Shown here piece after piece: positions 2,145 to 29,739 of a DNA stretch of 32,000 bases (positions are counted from its first letter, which is position 1; every line of letters begins with the position of its first letter). Made by a program: the position numbers and the translations under genes. Source of the DNA: Candidatus Jordarchaeales archaeon (GTDB lineage Archaea > Asgardarchaeota > Jordiarchaeia > Jordiarchaeales > Freyrarchaeaceae); NCBI GenBank assembly GCA_038889235.1, contig JAWAHN010000002.1, forward strand, positions 134,356 through 166,355, read 5' to 3'. Under the pieces are notes generated by a model. The model ran no database searches and had not been told where the DNA came from. It saw only the letters and a program-made list of their open reading frames with translations.

Positions 2145-2477
2145 GTGGTGTCATTGAGGAGAAGAGGTATATTCATAGTCTACCCTGAATACTTCGATTC
2201 CAAACTAAGCAGACGTGGAGGGCGAAGGGTTCCTTTGAGCCTTGCTGTTCCAAATCCGACAGTAGATGAACTTGCATCTATTGCACATAAGCTTGGATGG
2301 CGTTTTAATGTCGAAACGGATGCGTCGTATCCAAGGTGCTGGTGGAACAGGAGGGGGAGGCTCGTGGTGGAAAAAGGCGTTATGAAGAAAGGGAAAGCTA
2401 TGCTTACCTTAGCCAGGAACCTTAAAGCATTGCGGGAGAGCAAGCAAATGCCTCCAAAGGTAGGGGGATCCGTTTGA
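2145..2477 (+). CDS. srp19: Signal recognition particle protein SRP19
   Basis: IVYPEYFDSKLSRRGGRRVP...P.V.EL and YPR.WW..GR..V motifs; start could be the TTG at 2154. Confidence 0.92.
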   Translation: MVSLRRRGIFIVYPEYFDSKLSRRGGRRVPLSLAVPNPTVDELASIAHKLGWRFNVETDASYPRCWWNRRGRLVVEKGVMKKGKAMLTLARNLKALRESKQMPPKVGGSV

Positions 2478-2767
2478 AGCGTTTGGGAAAAGCTCTCCAC
2501 GTTTCCTCTGCGGGCAATATAGTGGTTCAGGCGGATAAAGCTCCAGCTATTGGAAGCGTGGTCGTCAACGAAAAAATCGAAGAGGTCGGCTTGGTATACG
2601 ACGTAATAGGCCCTGTAAGCCGACCCTACGTTGTCGTAAGGCCGAAAGAAAATGTGGACGCGAAAAGTTATGTTGGAAGACTCCTTTACATCCGCGTGGA
2701 AGACAAAAAACAGGCGAAGAAAGCGGCGAAAAGCGCCACTAAAACCTCGAAGCCGAAAGCTCCCTAA
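2474..2767 (+). CDS. gar1: H/ACA RNP subunit Gar1/Naf1
   Basis: MKRLG..LH, VG.VYDVIGPV.RPYVVV motifs; Lys/Ala-rich tail; 4-nt overlap with srp19. Confidence 0.9.
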   Translation: MKRLGKALHVSSAGNIVVQADKAPAIGSVVVNEKIEEVGLVYDVIGPVSRPYVVVRPKENVDAKSYVGRLLYIRVEDKKQAKKAAKSATKTSKPKAP

Positions 2768-3938
2768 GCGAGTCAAGTAATACCTTAACGGGTGCGTCCG
2801 TCTTAATAGCTACGGGACTAAAATGAGTTTTAAAAGCTGAAAACCCCTTCTTCTTCAAAAACTCGACTACTTCTCCTATAGATGGACATGGAACGCGAGC
2901 AGCCGAACATACGTTGTGAATATTGTAGTAGAGTGGCGGCGCGCTCGCCTCCGACAGAAGCTGCTCCAAGAGGCTTAACGCCTCACTCATTTTCTTCTCT
3001 TCAGCCACCTTAATCACTTCACCTAGGAAGCCCTCTTCCTGGAGTGAGCCGCACCAAAGTGGGCCGGCCAGTCTTACATTACCCCCACACTCAGCGCACT
3101 CCTCCGATAGCCTGTGAGTAGCGAATCCTTTGACTAGCTTCCTGGACAAGCACTTATCGCAATGCACTAGGAAACCTATTTCCCGCAGCACTTTATCTGC
3201 TTCCCTCGCCCCCAGTTTACCACTAAAGTAGACTCTTACATGGTGCCCGAAGTAGTACGATATTACCGGTTGTAGCGTGTAGTCGTACTTGGCTGCCACA
3301 CTCACCGCGTGCGCTATTAATATGCGGATGGCTACCTCGTGGCAATATTCTCCCTTAAATGGGATGCTGCCATAGCGCCTTAGGCAAACAGTAGGCTGTG
3401 AACCGCAAAGGGGGGGCAGATCTGTCGCTGTAACGCAGAGAATGGCACTTTTAGGTTTTAGGGCTCTCACGGCAGATTCTAGAAAGGGAGCAGGTGAGCC
3501 GAACGGGTCTAGGTCCACGAAGTCGAACCTCTCACCCCTCGACGCAAAGAATGAAAGAAGGGTGTTCGCATCTTCGCAATATACGGGTGTCTTCTCCTTA
3601 AGACCATGCAGCTCGAAGTTCCTCTCTATCAGGGAGGCAGCGGCAGGATTTAGGTCGTTAACCACTAGGCTTTCCACGCCATCCGTTTCGAGTACGAATC
3701 TCAAAGCTCTTACACCGCACCCAGCCATCGGGTCGCACACCCTCAATTTTCTTCCAGCCCTTCTGGAGTAAGCCTGAAGAACGCAAACGGCTATATCCCT
3801 GTTTAAAGCCATTTTGGGGTTGTAGAAAACCGGAGCTCTTGAGGGGATGAAACTTCCCTTTTCAGCATAGAGGCTAACGTCTGGGGCGTAAAACATGGTG
3901 GCTCCTTCTTTGTAGCAGCGTAGTGGAAAGCTTGACAA
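2739..3938 (-). CDS. trm1: tRNA (guanine26-N2)-dimethyltransferase Trm1
   Basis: VFYNPKMALNRD, DPMAGCGVR, DLDPFGSP, TATD, HVRV, GPLW.G, THF.P..IKTDA. Confidence 0.95.
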   Translation of the reverse strand: MSSFPLRCYKEGATMFYAPDVSLYAEKGSFIPSRAPVFYNPKMALNRDIAVCVLQAYSRRAGRKLRVCDPMAGCGVRALRFVLETDGVESLVVNDLNPAAASLIERNFELHGLKEKTPVYCEDANTLLSFFASRGERFDFVDLDPFGSPAPFLESAVRALKPKSAILCVTATDLPPLCGSQPTVCLRRYGSIPFKGEYCHEVAIRILIAHAVSVAAKYDYTLQPVISYYFGHHVRVYFSGKLGAREADKVLREIGFLVHCDKCLSRKLVKGFATHRLSEECAECGGNVRLAGPLWCGSLQEEGFLGEVIKVAEEKKMSEALSLLEQLLSEASAPPLYYNIHNVCSAARVPCPSIGEVVEFLKKKGFSAFKTHFSPVAIKTDAPVKVLLDSLRELSASRF

Positions 3939-5976: not shown

Positions 5977-8349
5977 ATGTTTTTCTGCTGTCCTAAGACA
6001 ATTTCGTTTATGGGTCTCTCATCGGGGAAAGGCTCTAGCCCTCATCTTCTGAGCGGAGAAGTGCACTACTTCCGTCTACCTCCGTCAGAGTGGCGTAACC
6101 GCATACTGAAAGCTAAAGAAGCCGGTCTACATGCAATTTCAACTTACATACCATGGAACTGGCATGAGATCAGTGAAGGAGTGTTCGATTTTTCGGGGGA
6201 CACTCACCCTCAAAGAAATTTAGAACTTTTCCTTGAAACAGCCGAGGAAGAAGATATGCTCGTAATTGCTAAGCCGGGGCCATACATATGCGCTGAATGG
6301 ATTTACGGTGGGATACCGCCTTGGCTTCTGAAAAGCCGACCAGAAATACGTGCTCTCGACTCTTCGGGAAAACCGACGAAGTGGCTTTCAAAAAAAGCAC
6401 CAGTCGTGAGCTACCTTCACCCAACTTACCTTGAATTTGCAGAGAGATGGATGAAAAAAGTTTCTGAAGTGATAAAGAAGTACGAGGCATCTAGAGGAGG
6501 TTGCGTATTCATAGTTCAAGTGGATAATGAGTCCTGTTACGGTTTCCATTTCTCGCCGTTCGACACAGATTACAACCCAGTAGTTGTAGGGGCATGCGGA
6601 AAGGAAGGTTTGTACCACGAGTGGCTTAAAACTAAATTCCCATCGATAGAACAGCTCAACATGGCTTACGGAACGAAATACACCGATTTCTCCGAAGTTC
6701 AGCCACCTAGAAAACTAGATGGGAGGCGCAATCTCCCAGCGGTACTCGACTGGATTGAGTTCAAAGAGCAAATAATTGCCACTTTCCTTCACAAGATGGC
6801 CGAATCTGTCAGGAGTACTGGGGTAGACGTGCTCCTAATAACGAATGACTTTTTCATCTCTCTCCTTTCCCCTCCAGTACAGGTGAAAAGTCGCTTTTTG
6901 GTCGATGCAGTAAACCTATACCCTCACTACCTTGACGACGAGTCATTTCTTGCGGTTGTAAACTACCTCGAGCTTTTCAAGGGGTGCCAACCTGGAAAAC
7001 CACTTATAGTGGCAGAACTCCAAGCAGGGTGGTTCTCTTATAAGACGTCTAAAAACACGCTGCACGCTCTGGCAAGACTTGCACACGTAAAGGGTGCTAG
7101 AATAACAAATTTCTATATGTTTTCTGGGGGAGTAAATCCTAAGGGCTTTGGCACCACGGGAAAACTCTATTTCAAGGACGCGCCAGTCAGCCCTGAGGGA
7201 AGAAAGACTGACAAGTATTATACCATCAAATTGTTCGCCTCACTCGTTGAAACTTCCCCACCACCTGACCCAACATACGACCTTCACGTTGCATACTATC
7301 ACAAGTACAGTGCTGCGGAGATCGCTGATGGTTGTGACGTTCACGGGCGGAAATACAGGGCCATATCAACTTCATTCCGCCGCCTCCTGCTATCTCTCTT
7401 AAAAAACGGGCTGAGTTACTCTATTACTCCAATTGAATTCGTCAATCCGCAGATTTCCCCTCTGTTATTTAACGCGTTTGATTTCTTAAACGAAGAAGGA
7501 GCCGAAAAGCTGGTACATTACGTCGAGGAAGGTGGTACTTTAATCCTAACCCCTCAAACTCCCTCCTTCGGTGAAAGGAACCGCTCACCTAACGCCCTAG
7601 CGGAGGCACTAGGGGTTACCGAGCAGAACGTTAGGAGCGGGGTAGTTGAGCTCGCCAGCCAAAAATTGGAGGTACGCTCCGCCACTGTTTTCAAAGTTAA
7701 AGAAGCAGAGCCCCTGGCGATTCTTAACGAAAGACATCTGTGCGGCTTCCGTTCCGACATTGGGAAAGGAAAAGTTATCCAACTTGGCTTCACTCCAAGC
7801 TTCTCTCAATTAGAAAAGCTAGTACCCAACTTGAGACCGGTGTGTAGGGCGAGCAACGTTATGGCGTGCCTTTCGAGGGACGAGAAAGGCTACAGTTTAT
7901 TTGTTTGCAATTTCGAACGGAAAGATGTCGAAGGAGTTGTCCACTTATGCCTCCCCGATTACAGCACGTTGATACGCTTTTCTCTCCCGGCGAGAGGCAG
8001 CGCGGTATGGCCCCTCAGGCGAAAGTTCAACTTTGGGGAATTGGTGTACGCCACAGCAGAAATCGTCGAAGTTAGTAAAGAAGGTCTCACCTTCTGGGCG
8101 TATGAAGGGTCAAGAGTCAGTATCGAGTTAAAGACCGGCGAAAATCTTCCACTGCATGGAGACGCCAGTAGACACCTTGGGAGAACCATGTTCTTTGAAG
8201 TTTATGCCAAGAGGGGGGAAAACATGGTTGCAGAAAAACCACTAAAATTGGTTGTAATTGGGGTTAGGCGCCCCGAGCTAGAAGGAGTTAGAGAGCGTGC
8301 AATAAACACCATAAGAAAGTTTGCCGTTAAAAGAGTTCTCGGATACTAA
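5977..8349 (+). CDS. GH35 family glycoside hydrolase (beta-galactosidase-like) with trimerisation-type domain
   Basis: LSGEVHYFR, TYIPWNWHE, KPGPYICAEW..GG.P.WL, acid/base QVDNE, nucleophile region AELQAGW, YMFSGG.N; start may be the ATG at 6010. Confidence 0.88.
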   Translation: MFFCCPKTISFMGLSSGKGSSPHLLSGEVHYFRLPPSEWRNRILKAKEAGLHAISTYIPWNWHEISEGVFDFSGDTHPQRNLELFLETAEEEDMLVIAKPGPYICAEWIYGGIPPWLLKSRPEIRALDSSGKPTKWLSKKAPVVSYLHPTYLEFAERWMKKVSEVIKKYEASRGGCVFIVQVDNESCYGFHFSPFDTDYNPVVVGACGKEGLYHEWLKTKFPSIEQLNMAYGTKYTDFSEVQPPRKLDGRRNLPAVLDWIEFKEQIIATFLHKMAESVRSTGVDVLLITNDFFISLLSPPVQVKSRFLVDAVNLYPHYLDDESFLAVVNYLELFKGCQPGKPLIVAELQAGWFSYKTSKNTLHALARLAHVKGARITNFYMFSGGVNPKGFGTTGKLYFKDAPVSPEGRKTDKYYTIKLFASLVETSPPPDPTYDLHVAYYHKYSAAEIADGCDVHGRKYRAISTSFRRLLLSLLKNGLSYSITPIEFVNPQISPLLFNAFDFLNEEGAEKLVHYVEEGGTLILTPQTPSFGERNRSPNALAEALGVTEQNVRSGVVELASQKLEVRSATVFKVKEAEPLAILNERHLCGFRSDIGKGKVIQLGFTPSFSQLEKLVPNLRPVCRASNVMACLSRDEKGYSLFVCNFERKDVEGVVHLCLPDYSTLIRFSLPARGSAVWPLRRKFNFGELVYATAEIVEVSKEGLTFWAYEGSRVSIELKTGENLPLHGDASRHLGRTMFFEVYAKRGENMVAEKPLKLVVIGVRRPELEGVRERAINTIRKFAVKRVLGY

Positions 8350-8355
8350 GCTCTG

Positions 8356-8859
8356 TTACTTTTTCTTTTTCACAAGTTCCTTAGCTTCCTCTATCCAAGA
8401 AGCAAGTTTCTTCTCGCTTATTCCCGTGGCTTCAGAGAGGAGTTTTGCGTCGCTTTTCGCCAGTTGTTCTAGGTTCTCTATGCCTGCGTTCTTGAGCTTC
8501 TCAGCAGTCTTCGGTCCAAGCCCTTTAAGAATGGTTAGCGGTGTTCCTTCCTCTACTACCTCGACCTGTTCCACTTTCGCCTTCTCAACTTTTTCGGCGG
8601 GCGCTTCTTCAACGGCTTTTTCCTCCTCGCTAACTTCTTTAATAGCTTTTCCGGCTTTCAGCACATCTACTAGTTTTCTTAGTGCCTCAACGTTTTCCTT
8701 GTGGACGCTCCTCCTTCTTTTATCGACCATTACCCCGATTTTCTTCGCGTCATGTAATGTAAGGTTTGCCTCCCTCAGTTCGCCTAAGCTGAAACCGCGC
8801 CCCTCTCTAACCTTGTTTAAGCTCTTCGGAACACGCACCATGGGCTTAATCTTCTCCAT
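8356..8859 (-). CDS. rpl13e: 50S ribosomal protein L13e fused to a C-terminal helix-hairpin-helix domain
   Basis: REGRGFSLGEL..A, VDKRRRSVHKENV (L13e); acidic linker; LKGLGPKTAEKLKNAGIENLEQLA...GISEKK (HhH). GGAGGTG SD precedes the ATG at 8859. Confidence 0.9.
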   Translation of the reverse strand: MEKIKPMVRVPKSLNKVREGRGFSLGELREANLTLHDAKKIGVMVDKRRRSVHKENVEALRKLVDVLKAGKAIKEVSEEEKAVEEAPAEKVEKAKVEQVEVVEEGTPLTILKGLGPKTAEKLKNAGIENLEQLAKSDAKLLSEATGISEKKLASWIEEAKELVKKKK

Positions 8860-8997
8860 GTAAGCCACCTCCCATTTGTTTAGACAAATGCGCTATGTGC
8901 CCTCAAAATTTCCTCGGAATTTCCTTTGAGAAGTTACTTTTTTAAGTTTCTCCGGCTGATGTTGCTCTCGTTGACGCGTAACCGGAGGCAGTGCACT

Positions 8998-10220: not shown

Positions 10221-11474
10221 ATGGGTAAAACGCTTGCCGAAAAAATTCTAAGTCTCGCCTCTGGAACTGACGCCTACCAAGGAGACATAGTGGTAGCTAA
10301 CGTAGACTTTGCCATGGCGCAGGATGGCACAGCCCCCTTGGCGATTGAAGCCTTCAAGAGTATGGGGGTAGAAAAAGTCTGGGATCCCAGTAGGATAGCG
10401 CTCGTCATAGACCACAACGCCCCCAGTCCCAACGAAGGTGTCTCGAAGCTACATAAGCTGATGAGAGAGTGGGCTACAAGTCAAGGGGTAATCCTTTACG
10501 ACATAGGGGAAGGTGTCTGCCACCAAGTTATGGTGGAGCGTGGACACGTAAAACCTGGAAGAGTCGTCCTAGGAGCCGACAGCCACACATGCACTTACGG
10601 TGCGCTCGGCGCCTTGGCTACTGGTATAGGGTCAACGGAGATGGCTGCTGTCTTTGCAAGCGGCCAGCTCTGGCTGAGAGTCCCAGAAACGTTCCTTGTA
10701 ATTGTCGAGGGTAAGCTTCCCAACGGGGTCTACGCTAAGGACATTGTTTTGTCAGTCATTGGGAAAGTTGGAGCTGACGGGGCAACCTACATGGCCGTTG
10801 AGTATACGGGAAGTACCATTAAGGAACTCAGCCTGGACGGACGGTTAACTCTCTGCAACATGGCTGTAGAAATGGGTGGAAAAACGGGTCTAGTGGCCCC
10901 CGACGAGAAAGTGGTCTCCTTCCTAAAGGAGAGAGGGATAACAGGCGGATACGAGTTACTTGCAAGCGACGAGGATGCAGATTTTGCCGAAAAGCTAGAG
11001 CTCGACGCCGAGGACCTAGTGCCGGTCGTTGCATGTCCCCACTCTGTGGACAATGTTAAATCAGTAGAAGAAGTTGAAGGAACACCCGTTAGCCAAGTAT
11101 TCATAGGAACCTGCACTAACGGTAGAATAGAAGATCTAAGAATCGCTGCAAGAGTTATGAAAGGAAGGAAAGTCAGGGTGAGAACAATAATTGTGCCAGC
11201 TTCCAGAGAGGTTTACCTCAAAGCCTTGAGAGAAGGACTCATTGAGGCATTCGTAGAGGCAGGCGCTACCGTCTGCAACCCTGGATGCGGCCCCTGCGTC
11301 GGGACACACCAAGGGATACCGTCACCCGGCGACGTTGTCATCTCCACGGCTAATAGAAACTTTAAGGGGAGAATGGGTTGTGACGACGCCGAAATATACC
11401 TTGCCTCACCTCACACCGCTGCGCTGGCAGCGGTAACTGGAGAAATAAGAGACCCTAGAAGGGGAGACATATGA
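10221..11474 (+). CDS. leuC: 3-isopropylmalate dehydratase / homoaconitase family large subunit
   Basis: DHNAP, GVCHQV, GADSHTCTYGA, IGTCTNGR, CGPCVG, STANRNFKGRMG; intact. Confidence 0.95.
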   Translation: MGKTLAEKILSLASGTDAYQGDIVVANVDFAMAQDGTAPLAIEAFKSMGVEKVWDPSRIALVIDHNAPSPNEGVSKLHKLMREWATSQGVILYDIGEGVCHQVMVERGHVKPGRVVLGADSHTCTYGALGALATGIGSTEMAAVFASGQLWLRVPETFLVIVEGKLPNGVYAKDIVLSVIGKVGADGATYMAVEYTGSTIKELSLDGRLTLCNMAVEMGGKTGLVAPDEKVVSFLKERGITGGYELLASDEDADFAEKLELDAEDLVPVVACPHSVDNVKSVEEVEGTPVSQVFIGTCTNGRIEDLRIAARVMKGRKVRVRTIIVPASREVYLKALREGLIEAFVEAGATVCNPGCGPCVGTHQGIPSPGDVVISTANRNFKGRMGCDDAEIYLASPHTAALAAVTGEIRDPRRGDI

Positions 11475-12009
11475 TTAGGGGAAGGGTTTGGAAGTTTCCG
11501 GACAACGTTAACACAGACTATATTATACCTGGAATGTAGCCTGAAAAGTCAGGCTACCTGGAAAGTACAAGTTTAAGACGCTCGACATGGACGAACTGGC
11601 TAAACACGCTATGGAAGGCATAGACCCAAGCTTCTCGAAGAAAGTTAGAAAAGGCGACATAATCGTAGCTGGGAAAAACTTTGGTTGCGGCTCGAGCAGA
11701 GAGCAAGCTCCACTAGTCCTCAAACACGTGGGGATCTCCTTGATCATAGCGGAAAGCTTCGCCCGAATATTCTACCGCAACTCCTTTAACATAGGACTTC
11801 CCCTCCTCATATGCAAAGGGATAACCGAAGCCACTGACGAAGGCGACGAGCTAGAAGTAGATGTTAGCAGCGGTCGCATACGCAACCTGACAAAGGGCAC
11901 CGAGTTGTATGCAAACCCAATACCTGACTTCCTGATGGAGATTGTCAACTCTGGTGGTCTTTCCGAGTACTACAAGAAGCACGGGCGGTTCCCATGGCAA
12001 AAAAGGTAG
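11471..12009 (+). CDS. leuD: 3-isopropylmalate dehydratase / homoaconitase family small subunit, split by a 29-nt intron: join(11471..11534,11564..12009), 169 aa
   Basis: ATG overlaps the leuC stop (ATGA). Exon 1 reads [21 protein letters not shown] then ATG-TAG; the downstream frame reads [13 protein letters not shown]...[15 protein letters not shown]...FARIFYRN. Removing 29 nt joins them as IIPGKYKF. Confidence 0.93.
11535..11563 (+). other. Candidate pre-mRNA intron with strict bulge-helix-bulge (hBHBh') motif
   Basis: Outer helix UAC(11526-28)/GUA(11565-67); central helix CUGG(11529-32)/CUGG(11558-61); bulges AAU(11533-35) and AAA(11562-64); inner stem GUAGCCUGA/UCAGGCUAC with AAAG loop. 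Cutting after bulge nt 2 on each strand releases exactly 29 nt and restores the frame. Confidence 0.88.
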
Positions 12010-12992
12010 GCTACATAGAGGGCGACGGCATAGGACATGAAATAGTTCCAGTAACTATTGAGATACTCGAAGAGTTAGTCCCACAAATAGAGTTGATACC
12101 GATAGAAGCCGGGCTAAACTACATGAAGAAGACAGGGAAAAACGTACTCATAAGCGACGAGGCGTTAGAGCTTGCAGCAACATGTGACGCCATACTCAAG
12201 GGACCGACGGAAACGCCTCCCGGGCCTGGAAGTCCGAAAAGCGTAGTAGTCACGCTAAGACAAGCATTAGATCTTTACGCCAACGTACGCCCCTTCCAGT
12301 ACCCGGGAAAAATAGACGTCATAATAGTCAGAGAGAACACGGAAGATCTGTACAAGGGAATAGAGCATAGGTTGTCGTCCGACGTCGCCATCGGCGTACG
12401 AGTAATAACCCGAAAAGGATCCAAAAGAATAGCTGAATACGCCTACAAGATGGCGTCCCAATTCGGAAGGCGCAAAGTTACCATAGTCCACAAAGCAACA
12501 GTCATGAAAGAGACGTGTGGCCTCTTCAGGGAGACTTGTCTCGAAGTCGCATCCCAATATCCTTCAATTGAAACGGAAGAAATGCACGTCGACACTATAG
12601 CGATGAACTTAGTTCTTAACCCGGCGCGCTTCGACGTTATACTCACAACCAACATGTTCGGAGATATACTCTCCGACCTCTGTGCTGGCATAGTTGGAAG
12701 CATAGGGTTATGCCCGTCGGCAAATGTGGGAGATAAAAACGCCATGTTCGAAGCAATACACGGAAGCGCGCCGGACATAGCTGGAAAAGGCATAGCGAAC
12801 CCCGCGGGAATAATACTCGCAGCAGCACTCATGCTCGACTACCTAGGATACACGACCCAAGCAAAAAAGCTCAGAGACGCCACACTAAGCGTGGTAACCG
12901 AAAAAGTCAAAGTGACCCCCGACCTAGGCGGCAACGCCACGACAAGACAAATGGCGGAAGAAATACTTCGAAAAGCCAAGCAAGAAAGCTAA
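11994..12992 (+). CDS. leuB: Isocitrate/isopropylmalate (beta-decarboxylating) dehydrogenase family, LeuB/AksF-like
   Basis: [62 protein letters not shown]. Confidence 0.9.
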
Positions 12993-16156: not shown

Positions 16157-16842
16157 GTCTGACGTGGGAGAAGATTAGGCTTTTCTTATCTCTCATATTG
16201 GTATGCGTAGTTATATCGTCTCTCTGTGTCTGGGTTTACATGTTGCCATCGCCTTCGGCTACGCTGCCAACTGTGCCTTTCGCCCTCTACTATTCAAAGG
16301 AGGAGTACACTGTCCAGGAAAATGGTACCGCTATGCTTACCGCGTTGTCGTATGCAGCTGTGTGGTTTTCTTCTTACGACGGTTCTTCTCTTACTGTTAT
16401 GGTGAGAGAAGGGGTAGGCGACATTCAAGCGGTTGAAATAAACCTTCTTACGGGTGAGACGAACGATTCCGGTAGCGGTATTTGGTGGATTCCTCCAATG
16501 AGACTTCTGTTCCCGGTGGTTTCTGTTAATGGGATTGATTTCGTTGTAGTTGGTAGTTGTGAGGAGTTCGTTAACCAGCTGGCTAGGGAGGCCATTATAC
16601 TCTTCCATAGTGATGGAGGAAACATTTCCATTGCCAAGTATAATAAAGAGAGCGGTTTCTTGATTGACTTGAAAGTTAGGCAGGGTGAATCCGTGACTGT
16701 TTACCACCTGCAATCCGTCCTTGGCGCTCAGCTGGGCATTTCCAAATACTACTATTTAAGGGTCATACTCCCTGTCACGCTCATCCCGTCTGTTGCTGCT
16801 CTCCTATTATCCATACCGAGGGCCGGGAGGAAAAGAAGGTGA
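16153..16842 (+). CDS. Hypothetical membrane protein with N- and C-terminal TM helices
   Basis: 4-nt overlaps with both neighbours; two hydrophobic segments and a basic C-terminus (RAGRKRR). Confidence 0.65.
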   Translation: MSLTWEKIRLFLSLILVCVVISSLCVWVYMLPSPSATLPTVPFALYYSKEEYTVQENGTAMLTALSYAAVWFSSYDGSSLTVMVREGVGDIQAVEINLLTGETNDSGSGIWWIPPMRLLFPVVSVNGIDFVVVGSCEEFVNQLAREAIILFHSDGGNISIAKYNKESGFLIDLKVRQGESVTVYHLQSVLGAQLGISKYYYLRVILPVTLIPSVAALLLSIPRAGRKRR

Positions 16843-17759
16843 GCGCTATATCGATACGTGGGCTGAGGAAGGTTTTCGGGAGCTTTGTAGCGCTGGACGG
16901 CGTTGACCTAGAGGTCCCCGAAGGTGTTTGCTTCGGGCTTCTAGGTCCTAACGGGGCGGGTAAAACGACGACGATAAAAATAATCCTCGGTTTGTTAGAG
17001 CCCAGCGGGGGCGAAGCTAGGGTTTTTGGTGAAAGGGCCGGAAGTTATGACGTGAGACGAAGGATAGGGTACCTCCCCGAGAGGATAGAATACCACAACC
17101 ACGTTTTATGCATAGACTTCCTGAAGTACGTGGGCATTTTGAATCACATGAGGCCGCTTGCCGCTGAGAGGGCTGCGAGGGAGATTCTTGCATGGGTTGG
17201 TCTTGAGGGGTGGGAGGAGCAGCCTATAGGAACGCTGAGTGCCGGTATGAAGCAGAGACTTGGCTTAGCTCAGGCGTTGATGGGGGATCCAGACCTTTTG
17301 ATACTTGACGAGCCGACGGTTAACTTGGACCCTATTGGAAGAAAGGAAATTCTCGACAAGGTGAGGGAGCTTGTCAAGGACGGGAAGACCGTCCTACTGT
17401 CGAGCCACATTCTTTCGGAAGTTGAAATGGTGTGTGACTATGTCGGGATAATCTACAGGGGGCGGACGCTTAGGCAGGGAAAGTTGGAGGAGGTCGTCCA
17501 AGAGATAGTTCACGGTAGGTCTGGAAAATACGAGCTCGTGGTAGATAAGACCGACGAGGTTCTCTCCCTCCTAAGGGAGAAGGGGGTTGAGGCGGCGGTG
17601 GAAGGCGGGCGAATAATAATTTCCTCTTCGAACATGGATTTCGTTGGAAGGATTATCCCGAAAGTTTTAGCTGAGGCGAATGTGTGCCTAACGAAGTTTG
17701 CCCCGATAGGCGGGGCGCTGCAAGAGGTATTCCTCCAGCTTGTTTCAGAAAACGTTTAA
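16839..17759 (+). CDS. ABC transporter ATP-binding protein (ABC-2/exporter type)
   Basis: Walker A GPNGAGKTT, signature LSAGMKQR, Walker B LLILDEP, H-loop SSHIL. Confidence 0.95.
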   Translation: MSAISIRGLRKVFGSFVALDGVDLEVPEGVCFGLLGPNGAGKTTTIKIILGLLEPSGGEARVFGERAGSYDVRRRIGYLPERIEYHNHVLCIDFLKYVGILNHMRPLAAERAAREILAWVGLEGWEEQPIGTLSAGMKQRLGLAQALMGDPDLLILDEPTVNLDPIGRKEILDKVRELVKDGKTVLLSSHILSEVEMVCDYVGIIYRGRTLRQGKLEEVVQEIVHGRSGKYELVVDKTDEVLSLLREKGVEAAVEGGRIIISSSNMDFVGRIIPKVLAEANVCLTKFAPIGGALQEVFLQLVSENV

Positions 17760-18778
17760 TGGTGTGTGAGAAGATGGCGTCTGTCTCCTTAAATAAGGTT
17801 CAAGCTGTTGTCTTACAGACGTTGTTCATGACATTAGAAGAGATGAAGGCGCTTTACAAGACGAAGGCGTTCGTGCTGTTTTCGGTCCTCATGCTTCTGC
17901 CGATGCAGCTGATCTTAATATCTTACGCTTTAACTCAATATCCCAATCTTCTAGCTGAAGTCGAAAAATCGCTTTTCCTAAACGGTTTGCTTGAGAACGG
18001 AGCCATTGATGTTTTCAGAGATATATTCTCCTCGGCCATGGGAGTCCAGACGGTCCAAATGGGCACTATACGTTTCGCTGTAGGTGCCACCGACTACTAC
18101 CTAAACTTCCCAATAGTCGCCATCGTGGCAATCCTTACATGTGGCTTCATAGCGTCTGAGAGGGAAAAGGGGACTTTCCAAGTGTACGTTTCAAAACCAG
18201 TCTATAGAACCCAGCTGGTGATATCTAAGTTCCTTTCATTCTCCTTGGTAAGCTTACTATTGACAGCTCTAACCTACTCTATAGCTTACTTTGCCTACGC
18301 CACCTTTCTACTCGCCCCGTTTTCCCTACTTTCTTTAGGCGTGCAGGAGACCGTGAGCTTATTGTTAACGCTAATATTTTTCACGTGGCTCTTCATACTC
18401 GCTGTTGGCTCTATAACTATCTTTTTTTCGTCGCTCATAGACCGATCCATCATAGCCGGGGTGGCATCCCTCATAATCTTAACGTTGTTATCCATACTTC
18501 CAGCTATGCTCATTGTGTTTGGAGGAGCCGGCCTTTCAACCTATTTAAGGTTCTTTGACATACCTAGCTTGGCTCAGCAATTGATAGACTACTACTCCCT
18601 CGGCCCCATCAATTACTATAGGGGTCTCTGGAACATCATAACAATGTTCGGATTCTTCTCAGAATTTATCCTTTCCAGACTGGTGGAGCCAGCGACGGCG
18701 CTCTCCTCTCTCCTTTTGCTCATAATAGTCCCATTGTTGGCAGCATGCATTATAACTGAAAAAAGAGAGGCAGTGTAG
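17759..18778 (+). CDS. ABC-2 type exporter permease
   Basis: About six TM segments; IASEREKGTF..Y.SKPV.R..LVISKF motif; start at ATG 17759 or a few codons later. Confidence 0.85.
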   Translation: MVCEKMASVSLNKVQAVVLQTLFMTLEEMKALYKTKAFVLFSVLMLLPMQLILISYALTQYPNLLAEVEKSLFLNGLLENGAIDVFRDIFSSAMGVQTVQMGTIRFAVGATDYYLNFPIVAIVAILTCGFIASEREKGTFQVYVSKPVYRTQLVISKFLSFSLVSLLLTALTYSIAYFAYATFLLAPFSLLSLGVQETVSLLLTLIFFTWLFILAVGSITIFFSSLIDRSIIAGVASLIILTLLSILPAMLIVFGGAGLSTYLRFFDIPSLAQQLIDYYSLGPINYYRGLWNIITMFGFFSEFILSRLVEPATALSSLLLLIIVPLLAACIITEKREAV

Positions 18779-22013: not shown

Positions 22014-22892
22014 ATGAAGTGGCTTGCAAGAAAACTCCACGACCTCAAAGCGGATGACTACAAGGTTCTAGGCGCCCTTGAAAGGGGAATGAAGATGTAT
22101 GAATTCGTCCCAGTAGACGTAATTACTCGGCTTTCATCCCTTCATGAGGGGAGAGTGTTGAACATTCTTAGCAAGCTACACGAGTTCAAATTGGTTGTAA
22201 GGCAGGTGGGCGACTATGTCGGGTACAGGTTGACGGTTCACGGCTTCGACGCCCTCGCTCTAAACGTGCTGGTTAACTTAGGGGTGATAGAATACATCGG
22301 CTCTAAACTTGGTGTAGGCAAAGAATCCGACATTTACGAGGCTCTCACACCCTCTGGCAGGCGTGTTGCCATAAAGGCTCACAGAATCGGGAGAACAAGT
22401 TTTACAAAGGCGAAGAGAGTTCGAAGTTACATTAAGGGCAAGATCACCCAGTCAGGGTGGTTTTCTGCTTCATGCAGATCGGCGGAAAGAGAGTACTTTG
22501 CCCTTAAAACCCTTCATCCCAATGGTGTTGCTGTACCAGAACCGATCGGCTTTAACCGGCACATCGTAGTAATGGAGCTCATAGACGGAGACGAATTGGT
22601 TAAGTACAAGTTTCTACCAGAACCCGACGATCTTCTAGAGTCAATAATCGAGAACATAAAGCTAGCCTATGAGTGTGGGATAGTTCACGGAGATCTGAGC
22701 GAGTACAACGTGATTGTAACTCCAGAGTTGGACGTCTTCCTAATTGACTGGCCTCAATTCGTACCTATCAACCATCCTTCAGCACAATACCTGCTCGAAA
22801 GAGACGTCTACAACGTCTTACGGTTCTTCGAAAGAAAGTTCAATGTTCGGTTAAACTTATCGGAAACCCTTGACTATATTACTAAGGGGTAG
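22014..22892 (+). CDS. rio2: RIO2-type serine/threonine kinase/ATPase
   Basis: N-terminal wHTH (GYRLT..GFD.LAL), GVGKESDIY, HRIGRTSF, VHGDLSEYNV, IDWPQ. Confidence 0.93.
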   Translation: MKWLARKLHDLKADDYKVLGALERGMKMYEFVPVDVITRLSSLHEGRVLNILSKLHEFKLVVRQVGDYVGYRLTVHGFDALALNVLVNLGVIEYIGSKLGVGKESDIYEALTPSGRRVAIKAHRIGRTSFTKAKRVRSYIKGKITQSGWFSASCRSAEREYFALKTLHPNGVAVPEPIGFNRHIVVMELIDGDELVKYKFLPEPDDLLESIIENIKLAYECGIVHGDLSEYNVIVTPELDVFLIDWPQFVPINHPSAQYLLERDVYNVLRFFERKFNVRLNLSETLDYITKG

Positions 22893-22917
22893 TCAGAGCA
22901 GTCGGCTGGGTCAAAAG

Positions 22918-24948
22918 ATGGAAGCCCCTAAGAGAGTGCTTGGCGTCGACATACTTCCATCAAGCTCCCCGTCGTCTAAAACCCCCCCAAAGTATGCTGC
23001 GTTCCTACTGGAAGACGAGAAAAGCTATGTTTACGAGTGTCTTAGCAAGCGTGAGCTACTATCCCTCATAAACTTCGTAAAACCAGACATAGTGGCGTTA
23101 GATAACGTGTTTGAGCTCGCCTCTAACCAGGAGGGGATAATCTCCTTTCTGGCTAGCTGCCCTCCCACTACAAAGCTCGTGCAAGTGACCGGCTCCCCTG
23201 TTAGTGGTACTACGCCTCTTTCGGTGCTCGCATCCCAAAACGGCATTAAGGTCGAAAGCTTTTCACCCGTCAAAACCGCTGAAGTGTGCGCTAGGCTGGC
23301 GGCCAGTGGTGTAGGATACGCTGTACGTGTTTTTAGAGACGAAACGCGGATAATAATTGCCAGGGGGCGCTGCCCGGGCCATGGAGGCTGGAGCTCAGAG
23401 AGATTTAGAAGACGCGTGTATAACTTGATACTTCAGACAACCAAGGAAATACAGAGGAGACTCGACGAAGCGGGAATAGAATACGAGTTGCACGTAGAGA
23501 GGGTCGATGGTGGGGCTAAACGCAGTAAGTTCATCGTTTACGCTGAAAGAAGTATTGTAAGCCGGCTGGTTAAACCATATAGGGGGGACGTGATCGTAGC
23601 TATTCAACCCGTGTTACTCGAGCATCTAGAATGGATACCCCTTACTCAGGGAAGTTTAACCGCAGTTACGCCGAAGAAGGGGCTAATTGTGGGCATAGAC
23701 CCGGGGGTTACATGTGGCGTCGCCATATTAGACCTCAACGGCAACCTTATTCTCCTGGAAAGCGAAAAAGATCTATCCAGAACAGCCCTCGTCAGGAAAC
23801 TTACCTCTTTCGGTATACCTATTTTGCTCGCCTCAGACGTAAACCCGCCTCCGAGCTTTCTCGAAAAGTTGGCTGGCATACTCAACTCAAGACTATTTTA
23901 CCCGCCAAGGAGCCTTACAGTCTCGGAGAAAAGGGAACTCGTGCAAAAGTTTGTTGAAGAAAAGCGTGTTAAAGTTCAAGACTCGCACCAGCGCGACGCC
24001 CTAGCCTCAGCCCTCAAGGCTTTCTACACGTTCAAGAACAAATTCGAGAAAGTTGAAGCTAAAGCTAGATCCCTAGGCTACCCTATCTCACCTGACCAAT
24101 TGAAAATAATGGTTTTAAAGGGTCTGTCGCTTTCGGAGGCAATAAACATGCTTTCATCTTCAAAGGCGAAGGAGGAGACTGTTGAGGAGAAAAAAGTTCA
24201 GCCGGAACCAGACCTAAGTGTTCTGATCAACAAGTTGGAATCATATAGGGTTAAACTCAGGAGGATGAGGAGAAGTCTAATTCGCATCAAAGAGCTAAAC
24301 ACTTCTCTCGTCGCTGAGAAACAAAAGCTGGAAAACGAGCTTCAACGCCTCCGAGAGCTCTTAGAGAACGTTGACGTTAAAACTAGGTCTGAAGATGTGG
24401 AGAGAGTTGTGGAACGCTACAAAGAGGAGATTAAGATACTTAAAAATGAGATTTTGAAGCTGAAAGAGGAACTTTCAGCTGCACGCCACCAAATTGCAAA
24501 CCTGAAAAGGATGAGAATTATGGAAATAAGGGGAGTAGTTTACCCCCTTAAGGTTGTAAGGAGTTTCACTCCGAACGAGATCCGTAGAACGGAGGAAACC
24601 GTTGGAATAAACAAAGGAGACATAATCCTCTTACTGGATGGAAGCGGAGGCGGGAAGGCTACCGCGAACATGCTGATAGAAAAAGGAATCAAAGCCGTCA
24701 TTTCCAAGACCGCGATGTCGCACCTAGCTCTTGAAGCCTTCCTCGAAGCAAACATACCCGTCTTTTTCTCGGACGAAGTTCCTGTTAAGGAAATTGACGA
24801 CTTCGCCGTAGTAGATAAAAAGGAATTCGACTCCCTCCTTTCAAACTACCTTAGGGAGAAGGAGAGGATCGAGTTAGAAGAACAGAAGAGGAAGCTGGAG
24901 GAACTGCTTAAATCTTACAGAGCTGAAAGAGAGCAGGAGTTAAACTAA
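22918..24948 (+). CDS. DUF460/COG2433-type protein: RNase H-like folds plus long coiled coil
   Basis: VLGVDILP, GHGGWS..RFRR, IVGIDPG.T.G.AILDL.G, ASDVNPPP, HQRDALASA; Lys/Glu-rich coiled coil. Confidence 0.82.
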   Translation: MEAPKRVLGVDILPSSSPSSKTPPKYAAFLLEDEKSYVYECLSKRELLSLINFVKPDIVALDNVFELASNQEGIISFLASCPPTTKLVQVTGSPVSGTTPLSVLASQNGIKVESFSPVKTAEVCARLAASGVGYAVRVFRDETRIIIARGRCPGHGGWSSERFRRRVYNLILQTTKEIQRRLDEAGIEYELHVERVDGGAKRSKFIVYAERSIVSRLVKPYRGDVIVAIQPVLLEHLEWIPLTQGSLTAVTPKKGLIVGIDPGVTCGVAILDLNGNLILLESEKDLSRTALVRKLTSFGIPILLASDVNPPPSFLEKLAGILNSRLFYPPRSLTVSEKRELVQKFVEEKRVKVQDSHQRDALASALKAFYTFKNKFEKVEAKARSLGYPISPDQLKIMVLKGLSLSEAINMLSSSKAKEETVEEKKVQPEPDLSVLINKLESYRVKLRRMRRSLIRIKELNTSLVAEKQKLENELQRLRELLENVDVKTRSEDVERVVERYKEEIKILKNEILKLKEELSAARHQIANLKRMRIMEIRGVVYPLKVVRSFTPNEIRRTEETVGINKGDIILLLDGSGGGKATANMLIEKGIKAVISKTAMSHLALEAFLEANIPVFFSDEVPVKEIDDFAVVDKKEFDSLLSNYLREKERIELEEQKRKLEELLKSYRAEREQELN

Positions 24949-28620: not shown

Positions 28621-29739
28621 TTACAGCAGCCTAGCGACAAACTCGGAAATGTCGCAGACCACTATCCTGTTCTCCGACAAGCTTTCGAGCTGGCTCTTAC
28701 AGAAAGGACATGCTGTAACTAAAACCTCCGCTCCAGTAGCTACAGCTTCCTTAACCCTTTCTGTGCCTATTTTGCGAGAAAGTTCTGGAAAGTTCACGTA
28801 GAGAACTCCGCCACGACCGCAACACTTTGCGTTTTTCCTGTTCCACTCCATTTCCAAAAGGCGGACTCCCGGAATACTGCTTAAAACACTTCTAGGCTCT
28901 TCATAAACGTGCATTCTTCTCCCAAGGTGGCATGGATCGTGATACGTTACGCTAACACTCTTCCCCAGGTCTTTTAACTCAATTTTCCCCTCACTAATAG
29001 CCCCCCACAAATACTGGCTTAAGTGTAAAACTTCGACGTTAAGTGGGAACCCAAGTTTTGGATACTCGCGGGAAAGTGCCATATAACAGCCAGCACAAGA
29101 GGTGACAACGACTTCGCAACCACTTTTCTCCACCTCTCTCCTGTTATGATCAGCGTGCTCCATGGCTAGCTTCTTATGTCCCGCTGAGAGGAGCGGTACT
29201 CCACAACACCACTCGTCCCCAATCAACTTGAAACCACCCTCAACTAGCTCAAGTATCTTCGTCGTAGCTCTCGCTATCTCCGGCTGCCTATACGCGGCCG
29301 TGCAGCCTACAAAGTAAGCCACTCTCCCCTTACCACTCTTTTTTCCACTTAGCACGTTGAACCTTTTTGCATGTGCCTCTCCATAAGGGTTCTTTTCACT
29401 CTCCACCTTCCTACTAAGTTCAATAGTTGCCTCAGGGGCGGCGCCCTCCTCGAAGATCCTTGCTCTCACTTCTTTAACTATTTCTGGAACGTCAATGCTA
29501 GGCAAGCACCATTCCTTGCAAAGCCCACAAGTGGCGCACTGGTACATGATGTCCACCACTCTACCTTTAAGCTCAACTTTTCCGTTGCGCAGGTAGTATG
29601 CTGTAAAGGATTTCCCGTACGGAGCCACACTTTCAAGCTTAAGCTGGTTCGCTACGATGCAAACAAAACGACACATTTTCATGCATTCCACTCCGCACAT
29701 AACCACAGGATCTGCGCTCACCAAGACAAACCCTCCCAA
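28621..29739 (-). CDS. (Fe-S)-binding oxidoreductase subunit, GlpC/HdrD-like (CCG domains)
   Basis: C..C.KMCRFVC, CATCGLCKEWC, YFVGC, WCCG.P, SCAGC, YHDPCHLGR, CCG.GG, TACPFC. Confidence 0.88.
   Translation of the reverse strand: MGGFVLVSADPVVMCGVECMKMCRFVCIVANQLKLESVAPYGKSFTAYYLRNGKVELKGRVVDIMYQCATCGLCKEWCLPSIDVPEIVKEVRARIFEEGAAPEATIELSRKVESEKNPYGEAHAKRFNVLSGKKSGKGRVAYFVGCTAAYRQPEIARATTKILELVEGGFKLIGDEWCCGVPLLSAGHKKLAMEHADHNRREVEKSGCEVVVTSCAGCYMALSREYPKLGFPLNVEVLHLSQYLWGAISEGKIELKDLGKSVSVTYHDPCHLGRRMHVYEEPRSVLSSIPGVRLLEMEWNRKNAKCCGRGGVLYVNFPELSRKIGTERVKEAVATGAEVLVTACPFCKSQLESLSENRIVVCDISEFVARLL

What the first reader, a model, noticed from the sequence alone, without database searches (positions are those of the whole stretch)
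11526..11567. tRNA-type (BHB) intron in the mRNA of a metabolic gene, leuD
Seen: leuD starts at the ATG overlapping the leuC stop, reads ...TDYIIPG, hits UAG at 11537, and resumes in another frame as [12 protein letters not shown]. The extra 29 nt fold into a strict bulge-helix-bulge: 3-bp outer helix, 4-bp central helix (C-G, U.G, G.U, G-C), two 3-nt bulges and a perfect 9-bp inner hairpin. Cutting after the second nucleotide of each bulge, the rule for archaeal splicing endonuclease EndA, removes 11535-11563 and gives CCU GGA AAG UAC (PGKY). Established: EndA/RtcB splice BHB introns in tRNA and rRNA; the classic verified archaeal mRNA case is crenarchaeal cbf5. Inference: this is a spliced intron in an amino-acid biosynthesis mRNA, which annotation pipelines would call a truncated gene or pseudogene. 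I cannot check whether it has been reported.
Basis: partly seen in the sequence, partly recalled or inferred. Interest (0 to 1): 0.95.

Follow-up and report, generated by a model that had tools for sequence, protein, structure and literature searches.

The report
tRNA-type intron splits Asgard leuD gene
A leucine-pathway-type gene (LeuD/HacB family small subunit) of a hot-spring Asgard archaeon is interrupted by a 29-base intron of the kind normally cut out of tRNAs. The same-site intron is kept in all relatives of its family found here, so the protein can very probably be made only after the tRNA-splicing enzymes repair the mRNA, although no RNA data could be obtained to show it.

Summary

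- **The break.** The leuD-like gene starts at 11471, overlapping the stop codon of the upstream large-subunit gene. It stops at TAG 11537-39 and resumes in another frame.
- **The repair.** Removing 11535-11563 (29 nt) gives an intact 169-aa protein. Exon 1 matches NCBIfam TIGR02087 positions 1-18 and exon 2 matches positions 21-156.
- **The fold.** The insert folds as a strict hBHBh' motif.
- **Relatives.** Nine sequence variants of a same-site insert (23-30 nt) occur in all five genomes of this hot-spring Jordarchaeales family and in several metagenome assemblies. Their hairpins differ. In 8 of 9 the canonical EndA cutting rule restores ...IIPGKYKF.... The sister family and about 180 other leuD loci have no insert.
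- **Selection.** Both exons are under strong purifying selection (omega 0.02-0.11) while synonymous sites are saturated.
- **Machinery.** The genome encodes two EndA paralogues and RtcB.
- **Other introns checked here.** A 29-nt intron sits in the paralogous hacA/leuC gene, and the classic cbf5 intron is present.
- **Public annotation.** The closest relatives' proteins are truncated to 131-151 aa.

This scan had already noted such introns in other genes of this genome and in another Asgard genome. Limits: the metatranscriptome reads did not cover the locus, core covariation is weak, and one variant (L211) departs from the rule by 1 nt.

The parts
10221..11474 (+). Large subunit of isopropylmalate/homoaconitate isomerase (leuC/hacA family), intact, 417 aa. 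Its TGA stop overlaps the small-subunit ATG.
   Evidence: ORF list. NCBIfam TIGR01343/TIGR02086 match at full length, E about 1e-180.
11471..11534 (+). leuD-like exon 1: 21 codons plus the first base of the Lys codon ([21 protein letters not shown] + A).
   Evidence: Translation. Matches TIGR02087 profile positions 1-18. Among relatives it shows 4-12 synonymous against 0-3 non-synonymous differences.
11526..11567 (+). Complete hBHBh' motif: outer helix 11526-28/11565-67, central 4-bp helix 11529-32/11558-61, bulges 11533-35 (AAU) and 11562-64 (AAA), inner 9-bp hairpin 11536-44/11549-57 with loop 11545-48.
   Evidence: Sequence. MFE fold, z = -2.8. The same architecture is present in 9 variants, with 95% of core cells paired against 25-41% when the partners are slid.
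11535..11563 (+). 29-nt intron in phase 1 (A|AG of the Lys codon). It carries the in-frame TAG 11537-39. The exon-2 frame has TGA at 11542-44.
   Evidence: Removal gives a 169-aa ORF. Same-site inserts of 23, 25, 27, 27, 27, 29, 29, 29 and 30 nt occur in relatives.
11564..12009 (+). leuD-like exon 2: (A)AG TAC... [12 protein letters not shown]...GRFPWQKR, then the stop at 12007-09.
   Evidence: Translation. Matches TIGR02087 profile positions 21-156, 190.8 bits. omega 0.02-0.11.
11994..12992 (+). Isopropylmalate/isohomocitrate dehydrogenase (LEU3_arch type), 332 aa. It overlaps the end of the small-subunit gene and is probably in the same operon.
   Evidence: ORF list. NCBIfam TIGR02088 at 398.5 bits, just under the cut-off of 409.8.

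Best explanation
The 29 nt at 11535-11563 are an archaeal bulge-helix-bulge (hBHBh') intron inside the coding sequence of the LeuD/HacB-family small subunit gene.

Proposed mechanism:
1. The large-subunit / small-subunit / dehydrogenase transcript is made with the insert.
2. The exon bases UAC-CUGG pair with the intron 3' end (CUGG) and with the downstream exon (GUA). Together with the intron's own 9-bp hairpin this forms the BHB.
3. The splicing endonuclease cuts after the second base of each 3-nt bulge (11534|11535 and 11563|11564). The genome has two EndA paralogues, consistent with the broad-specificity (alpha-beta)2 type.
4. RtcB joins the exons to give ...CCU GGA AAG UAC... (PGKY), and probably circularises the intron.
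5. Only the spliced mRNA encodes the complete 169-aa subunit. Unspliced RNA ends after 22 codons.

Shown here: the motif, the frame restoration, conservation of the motif at this codon across a whole family while the gene stays under purifying selection, and the presence of the enzymes.

Inferred: that cleavage and ligation actually occur on this RNA. Any regulatory use is also inference.

The intron was most simply gained once, at the base of the hot-spring family. It is absent from the sister family.
For: - **Anatomy and frame.** Removing 11535-11563 gives a 169-aa ORF. The strict BHB fold has z = -2.8. A motif this strict occurs about once per 18.6 kb.
- **Profile continuity.** Exon 1 matches TIGR02087 positions 1-18 and exon 2 matches 21-156. 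The intronless orthologue P0125 matches 1-157.
- **Distribution.** All 5 genomes of family f1 (two genera) carry an insert at the same codon. All 6 genomes of sister family f2 read IIPGKYKF uninterrupted. Among 190 leuD loci, only the f1 loci are interrupted.
- **Variants.** There are nine variants, taken from independent assemblies (Logan, JGI, ENA, NCBI). In 8 of 9 the single rule 'cut after base 2 of each bulge' gives a 168/169-aa ORF with ...[13 protein letters not shown].... Intron lengths in these eight are 23, 25, 27, 27, 27, 29, 29 and 30 nt and the distal hairpin arms differ. The ninth variant (L211) has a 29-nt insert.
- **Selection.** For exon 2, omega is 0.02-0.11. Exon 1 has 4-12 synonymous against 0-3 non-synonymous changes. 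dS is near or beyond saturation in most pairs, yet the intron's pairing bases are almost invariant.
- **Machinery.** There are two EndA paralogues. By my reading of the sequence, one has the Tyr/His/Lys catalytic residues and the other lacks the His. RtcB is also present.
- **Same genome, checked here.** A 29-nt BHB insert in the paralogous large-subunit gene restores colinearity with the window's large subunit. A 29-nt BHB insert splits cbf5 at GHAGTL|DP, the classic site. Nearly all tRNA genes that ARAGORN finds in this genome carry introns.
- **Public annotation.** The closest relatives' proteins (>= 83% identity) are all truncated (131-151 aa) or have a chimeric N-terminus. From 72% identity downward they are full length.
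Against: - There is no RNA-level evidence. The four metatranscriptome runs laid gave essentially no reads on the locus, so splicing is inferred.
- Classical covariation in the conserved core is weak. Most of the 12 core pairs are invariant and only one shows a double compensatory change. The support comes from preserved pairing and from the differing distal stems.
- Variant L211 (one NCBI MAG contig) has an extra G, giving a 4-nt 3' bulge. The strict rule there would shift the frame by 1 nt. This could be an assembly error, a relaxed cut or local decay.
- The G003-type variant has a G.A mismatch in the central helix, and G001 has a mismatch in the outer helix. These are relaxed forms.
- The direct repeat TACCTGGAA means the exact cut sites in this genome cannot be fixed from sequence alone.
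Confidence: 0.85

Rival explanations
1. Translational bypass (hopping), as in phage T4 gene 60. The ribosome takes off at GGA 11531-33, skips the hairpin and the stop codon, and lands on the repeated GGA 11560-62. This would give the same protein without RNA splicing.
For: In this genome the 9-nt direct repeat provides matched take-off and landing codons. A stop codon follows two codons after take-off, and a stable hairpin lies in the gap.
Against: - The match is not conserved. In the G001 and G004 variants the take-off codon is GGC and no GGC landing codon is in register.
- In the G003, L194, L195 and G001 variants, landing on GGA would be followed by GAG (Glu). The Lys/Arg conserved in every intronless orthologue would be lost, whereas the BHB rule gives Lys in all of them.
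- What is conserved is the BHB geometry.
- The genome has BHB inserts in other genes without such repeats.
Confidence: 0.04
2. An inactivated gene: an insertion that broke leuD, tolerated because a paralogous small subunit exists (C1:290290-290691, 57% identity).
For: There is an in-frame stop and a frameshift. A second intact LeuD/HacB-family small subunit is present in the genome.
Against: - Both exons are under strong purifying selection in all carriers (omega 0.02-0.11), although synonymous sites are saturated.
- There are no further stops or indels in any of 9 variants across two genera.
- The insert itself keeps a precise BHB.
- The flanking large-subunit and dehydrogenase genes are intact.
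Confidence: 0.03
3. A split or shortened gene. The 140-aa ORF from ATG 11587 is translated on its own and works without the N-terminal 29 residues. The insert would be a spacer or regulatory hairpin.
For: An in-frame ATG lies 7 codons after the junction, and gene callers use it.
Against: - Exon 1 is conserved at the protein level, with mostly synonymous change. It encodes profile positions 1-18, including the family's conserved W-K-F-x-D-x-V-N-T-D motif.
- The start codon (ATG, GTG or TTG) always overlaps the large-subunit stop.
- This reading gives no reason for the BHB and its frame-restoring boundaries to be kept.
Confidence: 0.05
4. An assembly or sequencing artefact, or a simple +/-1 ribosomal frameshift site.
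For: None beyond the bare frame break.
Against: - Identical inserts recur in independent assemblies from many samples.
- Two DNA runs hold all sampled words of the stretch.
- The exon-1 frame closes at TAG 11537-39, before the exon-2 frame opens after TGA 11542-44. The frames do not overlap, so a single frameshift has nowhere to occur.
Confidence: 0.01

Closest known systems
BHB intron in the cbf5 pre-mRNA of Crenarchaeota (Watanabe 2002; Yokobori 2009, PMC2738675)
   Same: A short BHB intron lies inside a protein-coding sequence, and removal by the tRNA splicing endonuclease and ligase is needed to restore the reading frame. It is lineage-specific, with gain and loss. Gene callers mis-annotate the gene.
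   Different: - The gene is a metabolic enzyme subunit, not an RNA-modification enzyme.
- The host is an Asgard (Jordarchaeales) family, not Desulfurococcales or Sulfolobales.
- Splicing of cbf5 was shown by RT-PCR and in vitro cleavage. Here it is inferred.
- This genome also has a cbf5 intron at the catalytic Asp codon.
BHB intron in the 5' UTR of HVO_1309 mRNA, Haloferax volcanii (Schwarz 2020, PMC7714728)
   Same: EndA acts on an mRNA. That paper states that cbf5 was the only other mRNA case reported.
   Different: The Haloferax intron is in the untranslated leader and does not interrupt codons. The intron here must be removed for the protein to be made.
Non-canonical and multiple tRNA introns of Freyarchaeia/Atabeyarchaeia and other Asgard archaea (Valentin-Alvarado 2024, PMC11291895; bioRxiv 10.64898/2026.10.13.758758)
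   Same: The lineage and the machinery are the same, including two EndA paralogues consistent with (alpha-beta)2. The short BHB introns are of the same kind. tRNA genes of this genome are likewise intron-rich.
   Different: Those reports concern tRNA genes only. In the text I searched, neither mentions introns in protein-coding genes.
IRE1/RtcB unconventional splicing of HAC1/XBP1 mRNA in eukaryotes
   Same: A protein endonuclease cuts an mRNA at paired stem-loop sites, RtcB-type ligation joins the exons, and a short intron whose removal changes the reading frame is excised. This comparison rests on my general knowledge.
   Different: The endonuclease and its recognition motif are different. 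That system is a regulated stress response. No regulation is shown here.
Translational bypassing in phage T4 gene 60
   Same: It shares matched codons flanking a gap with a hairpin, and a stop codon close behind the take-off codon.
   Different: The matched codons are not conserved among the variants here. The BHB is.

Membership tests
Archaeal BHB (hBHBh') intron, substrate of EndA/RtcB | [quoted passage not shown] | tested here: met
   Bulges 11533-35 and 11562-64 flank helix 11529-32/11558-61. The same holds in 8 of 9 variants, one of them with a G.A mismatch in the helix. L211 has a 4-nt 3' bulge.
Archaeal BHB (hBHBh') intron, substrate of EndA/RtcB | Flanking helices h (exon-exon) and h' (intron) | tested here: met
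   h is 3 bp (UAC/GUA). h' is 9 bp here and 5-9 bp in the variants. 95.4% of core cells are paired, against 25-41% with the partners slid.
Archaeal BHB (hBHBh') intron, substrate of EndA/RtcB | Cutting after base 2 of each bulge yields a functional mature RNA | tested here: met
   It gives a 169-aa ORF colinear with intronless orthologues. Profile positions 1-18 and 21-156 are contiguous.
Archaeal BHB (hBHBh') intron, substrate of EndA/RtcB | Host encodes the splicing endonuclease and RtcB ligase | tested here: met
   PF01974 matches twice (111 and 77 bits) and PF01139 once (600 bits) in the same genome. The ORFs were read.
Archaeal BHB (hBHBh') intron, substrate of EndA/RtcB | Spliced junction and excised (circular) intron seen in RNA | tested here: inconclusive
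   Four metatranscriptome runs were laid. The locus had no usable coverage and no joints.
Archaeal BHB (hBHBh') intron, substrate of EndA/RtcB | Cleavage by the cognate endonuclease in vitro | not testable with these tools
   This is a bench experiment.
LeuD/HacB small subunit (NCBIfam TIGR02087, Pfam Aconitase_C) | Full-length match over the subfamily cut-off | tested here: met
   Exon 2 alone scores 190.8 bits against a cut-off of 108.95. Exon 1 adds profile positions 1-18.
LeuD proper (equivalog TIGR02084) versus homoaconitase HacB (NF040625/NF040604) | Score over an equivalog cut-off | tested here: not met
   Exon 2 scores 175 against 245.85 (LeuD) and 177.9 against 230 (HacB2). The intronless orthologue P0125 also falls below both cut-offs. 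The substrate is unresolved.
Programmed translational bypass (T4 gene 60 type) | Matched take-off and landing codons conserved among homologues | tested here: not met
   In the G001 and G004 variants the take-off codon is GGC and no matching landing codon is in register. In four variants, landing would replace the conserved Lys by Glu.

The most novel reading that the evidence does not exclude
This hot-spring Jordarchaeales (Asgard) family may carry tRNA-type introns in many protein-coding genes. I verified three here: this small-subunit gene, the paralogous hacA/leuC gene and cbf5. Earlier notes of this scan add kae1, a Rab-like GTPase, rpl44e and alba. These introns would have been kept for a long evolutionary time, so that routine, obligatory mRNA splicing by EndA/RtcB is part of gene expression in a close prokaryotic relative of eukaryotes. 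It might also be used to gate expression of whole pathways.
Probability: 0.6. Interest if true: 0.9.

Novelty: new member of a known kind. Interest (0 to 1): 0.72.

Why it matters
- **It extends a very short list.** In the literature I could search, the only BHB intron described inside an archaeal coding sequence is cbf5. A second mRNA case lies in a 5' UTR (PMC7714728, PMC2738675). An intron in a biosynthetic enzyme gene, conserved across a family while the gene stays under selection, shows the tRNA splicing machinery can serve ordinary mRNAs.
- **The lineage matters.** These are Asgard archaea, already known for intron-crowded tRNA genes. The finding therefore bears on how interrupted protein genes and enzymatic mRNA splicing can arise and persist in relatives of eukaryotes.
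- **It has a practical cost.** Such genes are systematically mis-called. Public entries for this protein are truncated to 131-151 aa. This distorts metabolic reconstructions (here, apparent loss of a Leu/Lys-type pathway step) and completeness estimates for these MAGs.

Tried and rejected
- **RNA evidence.** Two run searches and one lay of four metatranscriptome runs were made. Only 3-5% of the three raw-read runs was read. The locus got one contig piece in the large-subunit gene and one partial read. There were no joints, so this is no test either way.
- **Genome-wide census.** I wrote a BHB scanner (93,608 relaxed candidates). I then asked how many join two open frames, compared with controls in which the 3' cut was shifted by 1-2 nt. 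No excess appeared at any stringency, with or without a codon-usage score. Chance motifs near ordinary gene junctions dominate, so the method cannot count real introns. A window-restricted version gave only the leuD case as convincing.
- **Collection scans.** All loci returned were intronless.
- **RNA gene searches.** Rfam and ARAGORN found nothing in the window.
- **My first guess of host.** I first thought Bathyarchaeia, from names of distant hits and one nr entry. I dropped this after the sister-family proteins proved to be named Jordarchaeaceae / Freyarchaeum deiterrae.
- **A BHB-like candidate at window 29651-29703 (-).** It lies at the N-terminus of a GlcF-like gene. I judged it chance, because removing it would delete the cysteine motif.
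- **Single +/-1 frameshifting.** Rejected because the two frames do not overlap.

Full report
**What is in the sequence.** The window carries three genes in a row:
- a large subunit of the isopropylmalate/homoaconitate isomerase family (10221-11474, 417 aa)
- a small-subunit gene
- an isopropylmalate/isohomocitrate-type dehydrogenase (11994-12992)

The small-subunit gene starts at ATG 11471, which overlaps the large-subunit TGA. It reads [22 protein letters not shown] and stops at TAG 11537-39. A second frame, [12 protein letters not shown]...GRFPWQKR, is open from just after TGA 11542-44 to the stop at 12007-09. The first frame closes before the second opens, so a single ribosomal frameshift cannot join them. 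Deleting 11535-11563 (29 nt) gives a 510-nt ORF of 169 codons.

**The fold.**
- outer helix UAC/GUA
- central helix CUGG/CUGG (C-G, U.G, G.U, G-C)
- bulges AAU and AAA on opposite strands
- a perfect 9-bp hairpin with loop AAAG

An unconstrained fold returns the central helix, the 5' bulge and the hairpin at -15.8 kcal/mol (z = -2.8). In my own scan of the whole genome, a motif this strict occurs about once per 18.6 kb of strand. One sitting exactly on the frame break, with boundaries that restore the frame, is therefore unlikely by chance. In this genome alone the cut sites are therefore ambiguous, and a ribosome 'hop' between the two GGA codons would give the same protein.

**The two pieces make one protein.** Against NCBIfam TIGR02087 (LeuD/DmdB small subunit), exon 1 matches profile positions 1-18 and exon 2 matches positions 21-156. 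The three residues KYK fill the gap. An intronless orthologue matches positions 1-157. Only the subfamily model passes its cut-off. The LeuD and HacB equivalog models do not, so 'leuD' is a reasonable label but the substrate is not settled.

**Relatives.** I searched 41 related genomes with exon 2.
- All five genomes of the window's family (four of its genus, one of another genus) carry an insert at the same codon.
- All six genomes of the sister family read ...[13 protein letters not shown]... without interruption.
- None of about 180 further leuD loci from genome and metagenome collections is interrupted.

A protein search showed a sharp pattern. All ten clusters at 83-96% identity are 131-151 aa long, while everything from 72% identity downward is 164-185 aa. 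Fetching the DNA behind these truncated proteins brought the number of distinct insert sequences to nine. Several recur identically in independent assemblies from different samples.

**One rule fits eight of nine variants.** I parsed each variant into h, H, bulge, h', H, bulge, h, then cut after the second base of each bulge.
- This gives a 168- or 169-aa ORF with ...[13 protein letters not shown]... in eight variants.
- Their intron lengths are 23, 25, 27, 27, 27, 29, 29 and 30 nt.
- Their hairpins are GTAGCCTGA/TCAGGCTAC, GTAGCCTGA/TCGGGCTAC, GTAGC/GCTAC, GTAGCT/AGCTAC, GTAGCC/GGCTAC (in two variants), GGT(A)GCCG/CGGCGCC and GTG(A)CCGCT/GGCGGCGC.
- The G003-type variant has a G.A mismatch in the central helix, and G001 has one mismatch in the outer helix.
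- The ninth variant (L211, one MAG contig, 29-nt insert) has CCGGG instead of CCGG. This gives a 4-nt 3' bulge, and the strict rule would be off by one base there. I cannot tell whether this is an assembly error, a relaxed cut or decay.

On a nine-row alignment, 95.4% of the cells of the 12 core pairs are standard pairs, against 25-41% when partners are slid by 1-3 columns. Most core pairs never vary, and only one shows a double compensatory change. The comparative support therefore rests on preserved pairing, on the different but always complementary distal stems, and on the frame rule. It does not rest on classical covariation.

**The gene is alive.** Pairwise Nei-Gojobori estimates among the eight carriers give omega of 0.02-0.11 for exon 2. 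Exon 1 (20 codons) has 4-12 synonymous against 0-3 non-synonymous differences. dS is near or beyond saturation in most pairs. The start codon varies (ATG, GTG, TTG) but always overlaps the large-subunit stop. A pseudogene is excluded. Exon 1 is clearly selected as protein, which argues against a stand-alone 140-aa product from ATG 11587. With synonymous sites saturated, the near-invariance of the intron bases that pair with the exon (GCUAC-CYGG-AR) is itself a sign of selection on the RNA structure.

**Hopping versus splicing.** The matched GGA codons exist in this genome but not throughout. In the G001 and G004 variants the take-off codon is GGC, and no GGC landing codon is in register. In the four variants with an AGA bulge, landing on GGA would be followed by GAG (Glu). 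That position is Lys or Arg in every intronless orthologue I looked at, and the BHB rule gives Lys in all of them. The conserved feature is the BHB.

**Host and machinery.** The nearest full-length proteins, from the sister family, are named Candidatus Jordarchaeaceae, Candidatus Freyarchaeum deiterrae (on a 3.58-Mb contig) and Freyarchaeota/Jordarchaeia by their sources. This matches the complete 3.6-Mb genome placed in the same order. The window's genome comes from hot-spring metagenomes. It has:
- two EndA-family genes. By my reading of the sequence, one has the Tyr, His and Lys of the catalytic triad and the other lacks the His. This is consistent with the broad-specificity (alpha-beta)2 enzyme.
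- RtcB.
- tRNA genes that nearly all carry introns, among those ARAGORN can find.

Published work describes 92-95% intron-containing tRNA genes in Freyarchaeia and Atabeyarchaeia (PMC11291895). A 2026 preprint reports two EndA paralogues in most Asgard genomes (10.64898/2026.10.13.758758).

**Other protein-gene introns in the same genome.** Earlier notes of this scan listed BHB introns in kae1, a Rab-like GTPase, rpl44e, alba, an Fe-S gene, a hacA/leuC gene and cbf5 of this genome. A further note listed tyrS of another Asgard genome. I tested two of these myself.
- The paralogous large-subunit gene at C2:318659-318687 (-) carries a 29-nt BHB insert (UCGG/CCGA helix). Its removal gives a 431-codon open frame (the protein starts at its 13th codon) that aligns with the window's large subunit across the junction without a gap (51% identity).
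- cbf5 (C1, about 835886-835914) carries a 29-nt BHB insert. Its removal restores GHAGTL|DPKVTG, the catalytic-Asp motif and the classic cbf5 intron site.

So the scan found this phenomenon before on other DNA. This case adds a metabolic gene with family-wide comparative support.

**What I could not show.** RNA: four metatranscriptome runs were laid and the locus was essentially uncovered, so there is no verdict. My attempt at a genome-wide count by joining open frames across BHB candidates gave no excess over frame-shifted controls, and is uninformative.

**Literature.** As of 2020, a paper on Haloferax EndA states that the only further BHB intron reported in an mRNA besides its own 5'-UTR case is cbf5 of Crenarchaeota (PMC7714728). 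Yokobori et al. note that introns in other protein genes had been predicted but not confirmed (PMC2738675). My searches for Asgard, Jordarchaeia, BHB and mRNA found only tRNA and rRNA work. Absence from this library is not proof that it is unpublished.

**Verdict.** This is a real, conserved BHB intron in a LeuD/HacB-family gene of an Asgard archaeon. It is very probably spliced by EndA and RtcB (confidence 0.85). It is a new member of a known, very rare kind.

Noticed in passing
G000 C2:318659-318687 (-), about 152 kb beyond the window's end: A 29-nt BHB insert (UGC UCGG AAG ... CCGA ACU GCG) lies in the paralogous large-subunit gene (hacA/leuC family). Removing it gives a 431-codon open frame colinear with the window's large subunit across the junction (VMVHEMLG|MRIADIYEELG).
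   Followed up: yes
G000 C1: about 835886-835914 (+) (L212/L213): cbf5 of this genome is split by a 29-nt BHB insert exactly at the catalytic motif. Removing it restores GHAGTL|DPKVTGVLPVAIG. This is the classic crenarchaeal cbf5 intron site, here in an Asgard genome.
   Followed up: partly
window 11526-11534 and 11555-11563: The intron ends copy the exon flanks: TACCTGGAA-(T)GTA ... TACCTGGAA-(A)GTA. The locus therefore looks like a tandem duplication of a ~14-nt, partly palindromic target (UAC-CYGG-AAA-GUA) around a short hairpin core. This may hint at how such introns arise, or it may only reflect the two-fold symmetry a BHB needs.
   Followed up: no
L211:635-686 (NCBI assembly GCA_029856455.1, contig JAHQXA010000042.1): This variant of the intron has CCGGG instead of CCGG, giving a 4-nt 3' bulge. 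The canonical cut would shift the frame by 1 nt. Its public protein (P0123, 172 aa) has an out-of-frame N-terminus read through the intron.
   Followed up: partly
Public protein entries P0003-P0012 and P0123 (close relatives): All database proteins at 83-96% identity are N-terminally truncated (131-151 aa) or chimeric, because gene callers restart after the intron. One is named '3-isopropylmalate dehydratase small subunit [Candidatus Bathyarchaeota archaeon]' (HDO81235.1), which is probably a mislabelled lineage.
   Followed up: partly
whole genome G000: ARAGORN finds only 14 tRNA genes in a genome that is 95% complete. Eleven of them carry predicted introns, several at non-canonical positions, and one call has a 1333-nt 'intron'. 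Most tRNA genes are probably too interrupted to be detected.
   Followed up: no
window 2180-3938 (-), 5977-8863 (+), 16839-18778 (+), 22014-24948 (+): These are pairs of long same-strand ORFs that overlap by 23-76 nt. They may be ordinary overlapping genes or further frame breaks. My BHB join test gave nothing convincing there.
   Followed up: partly
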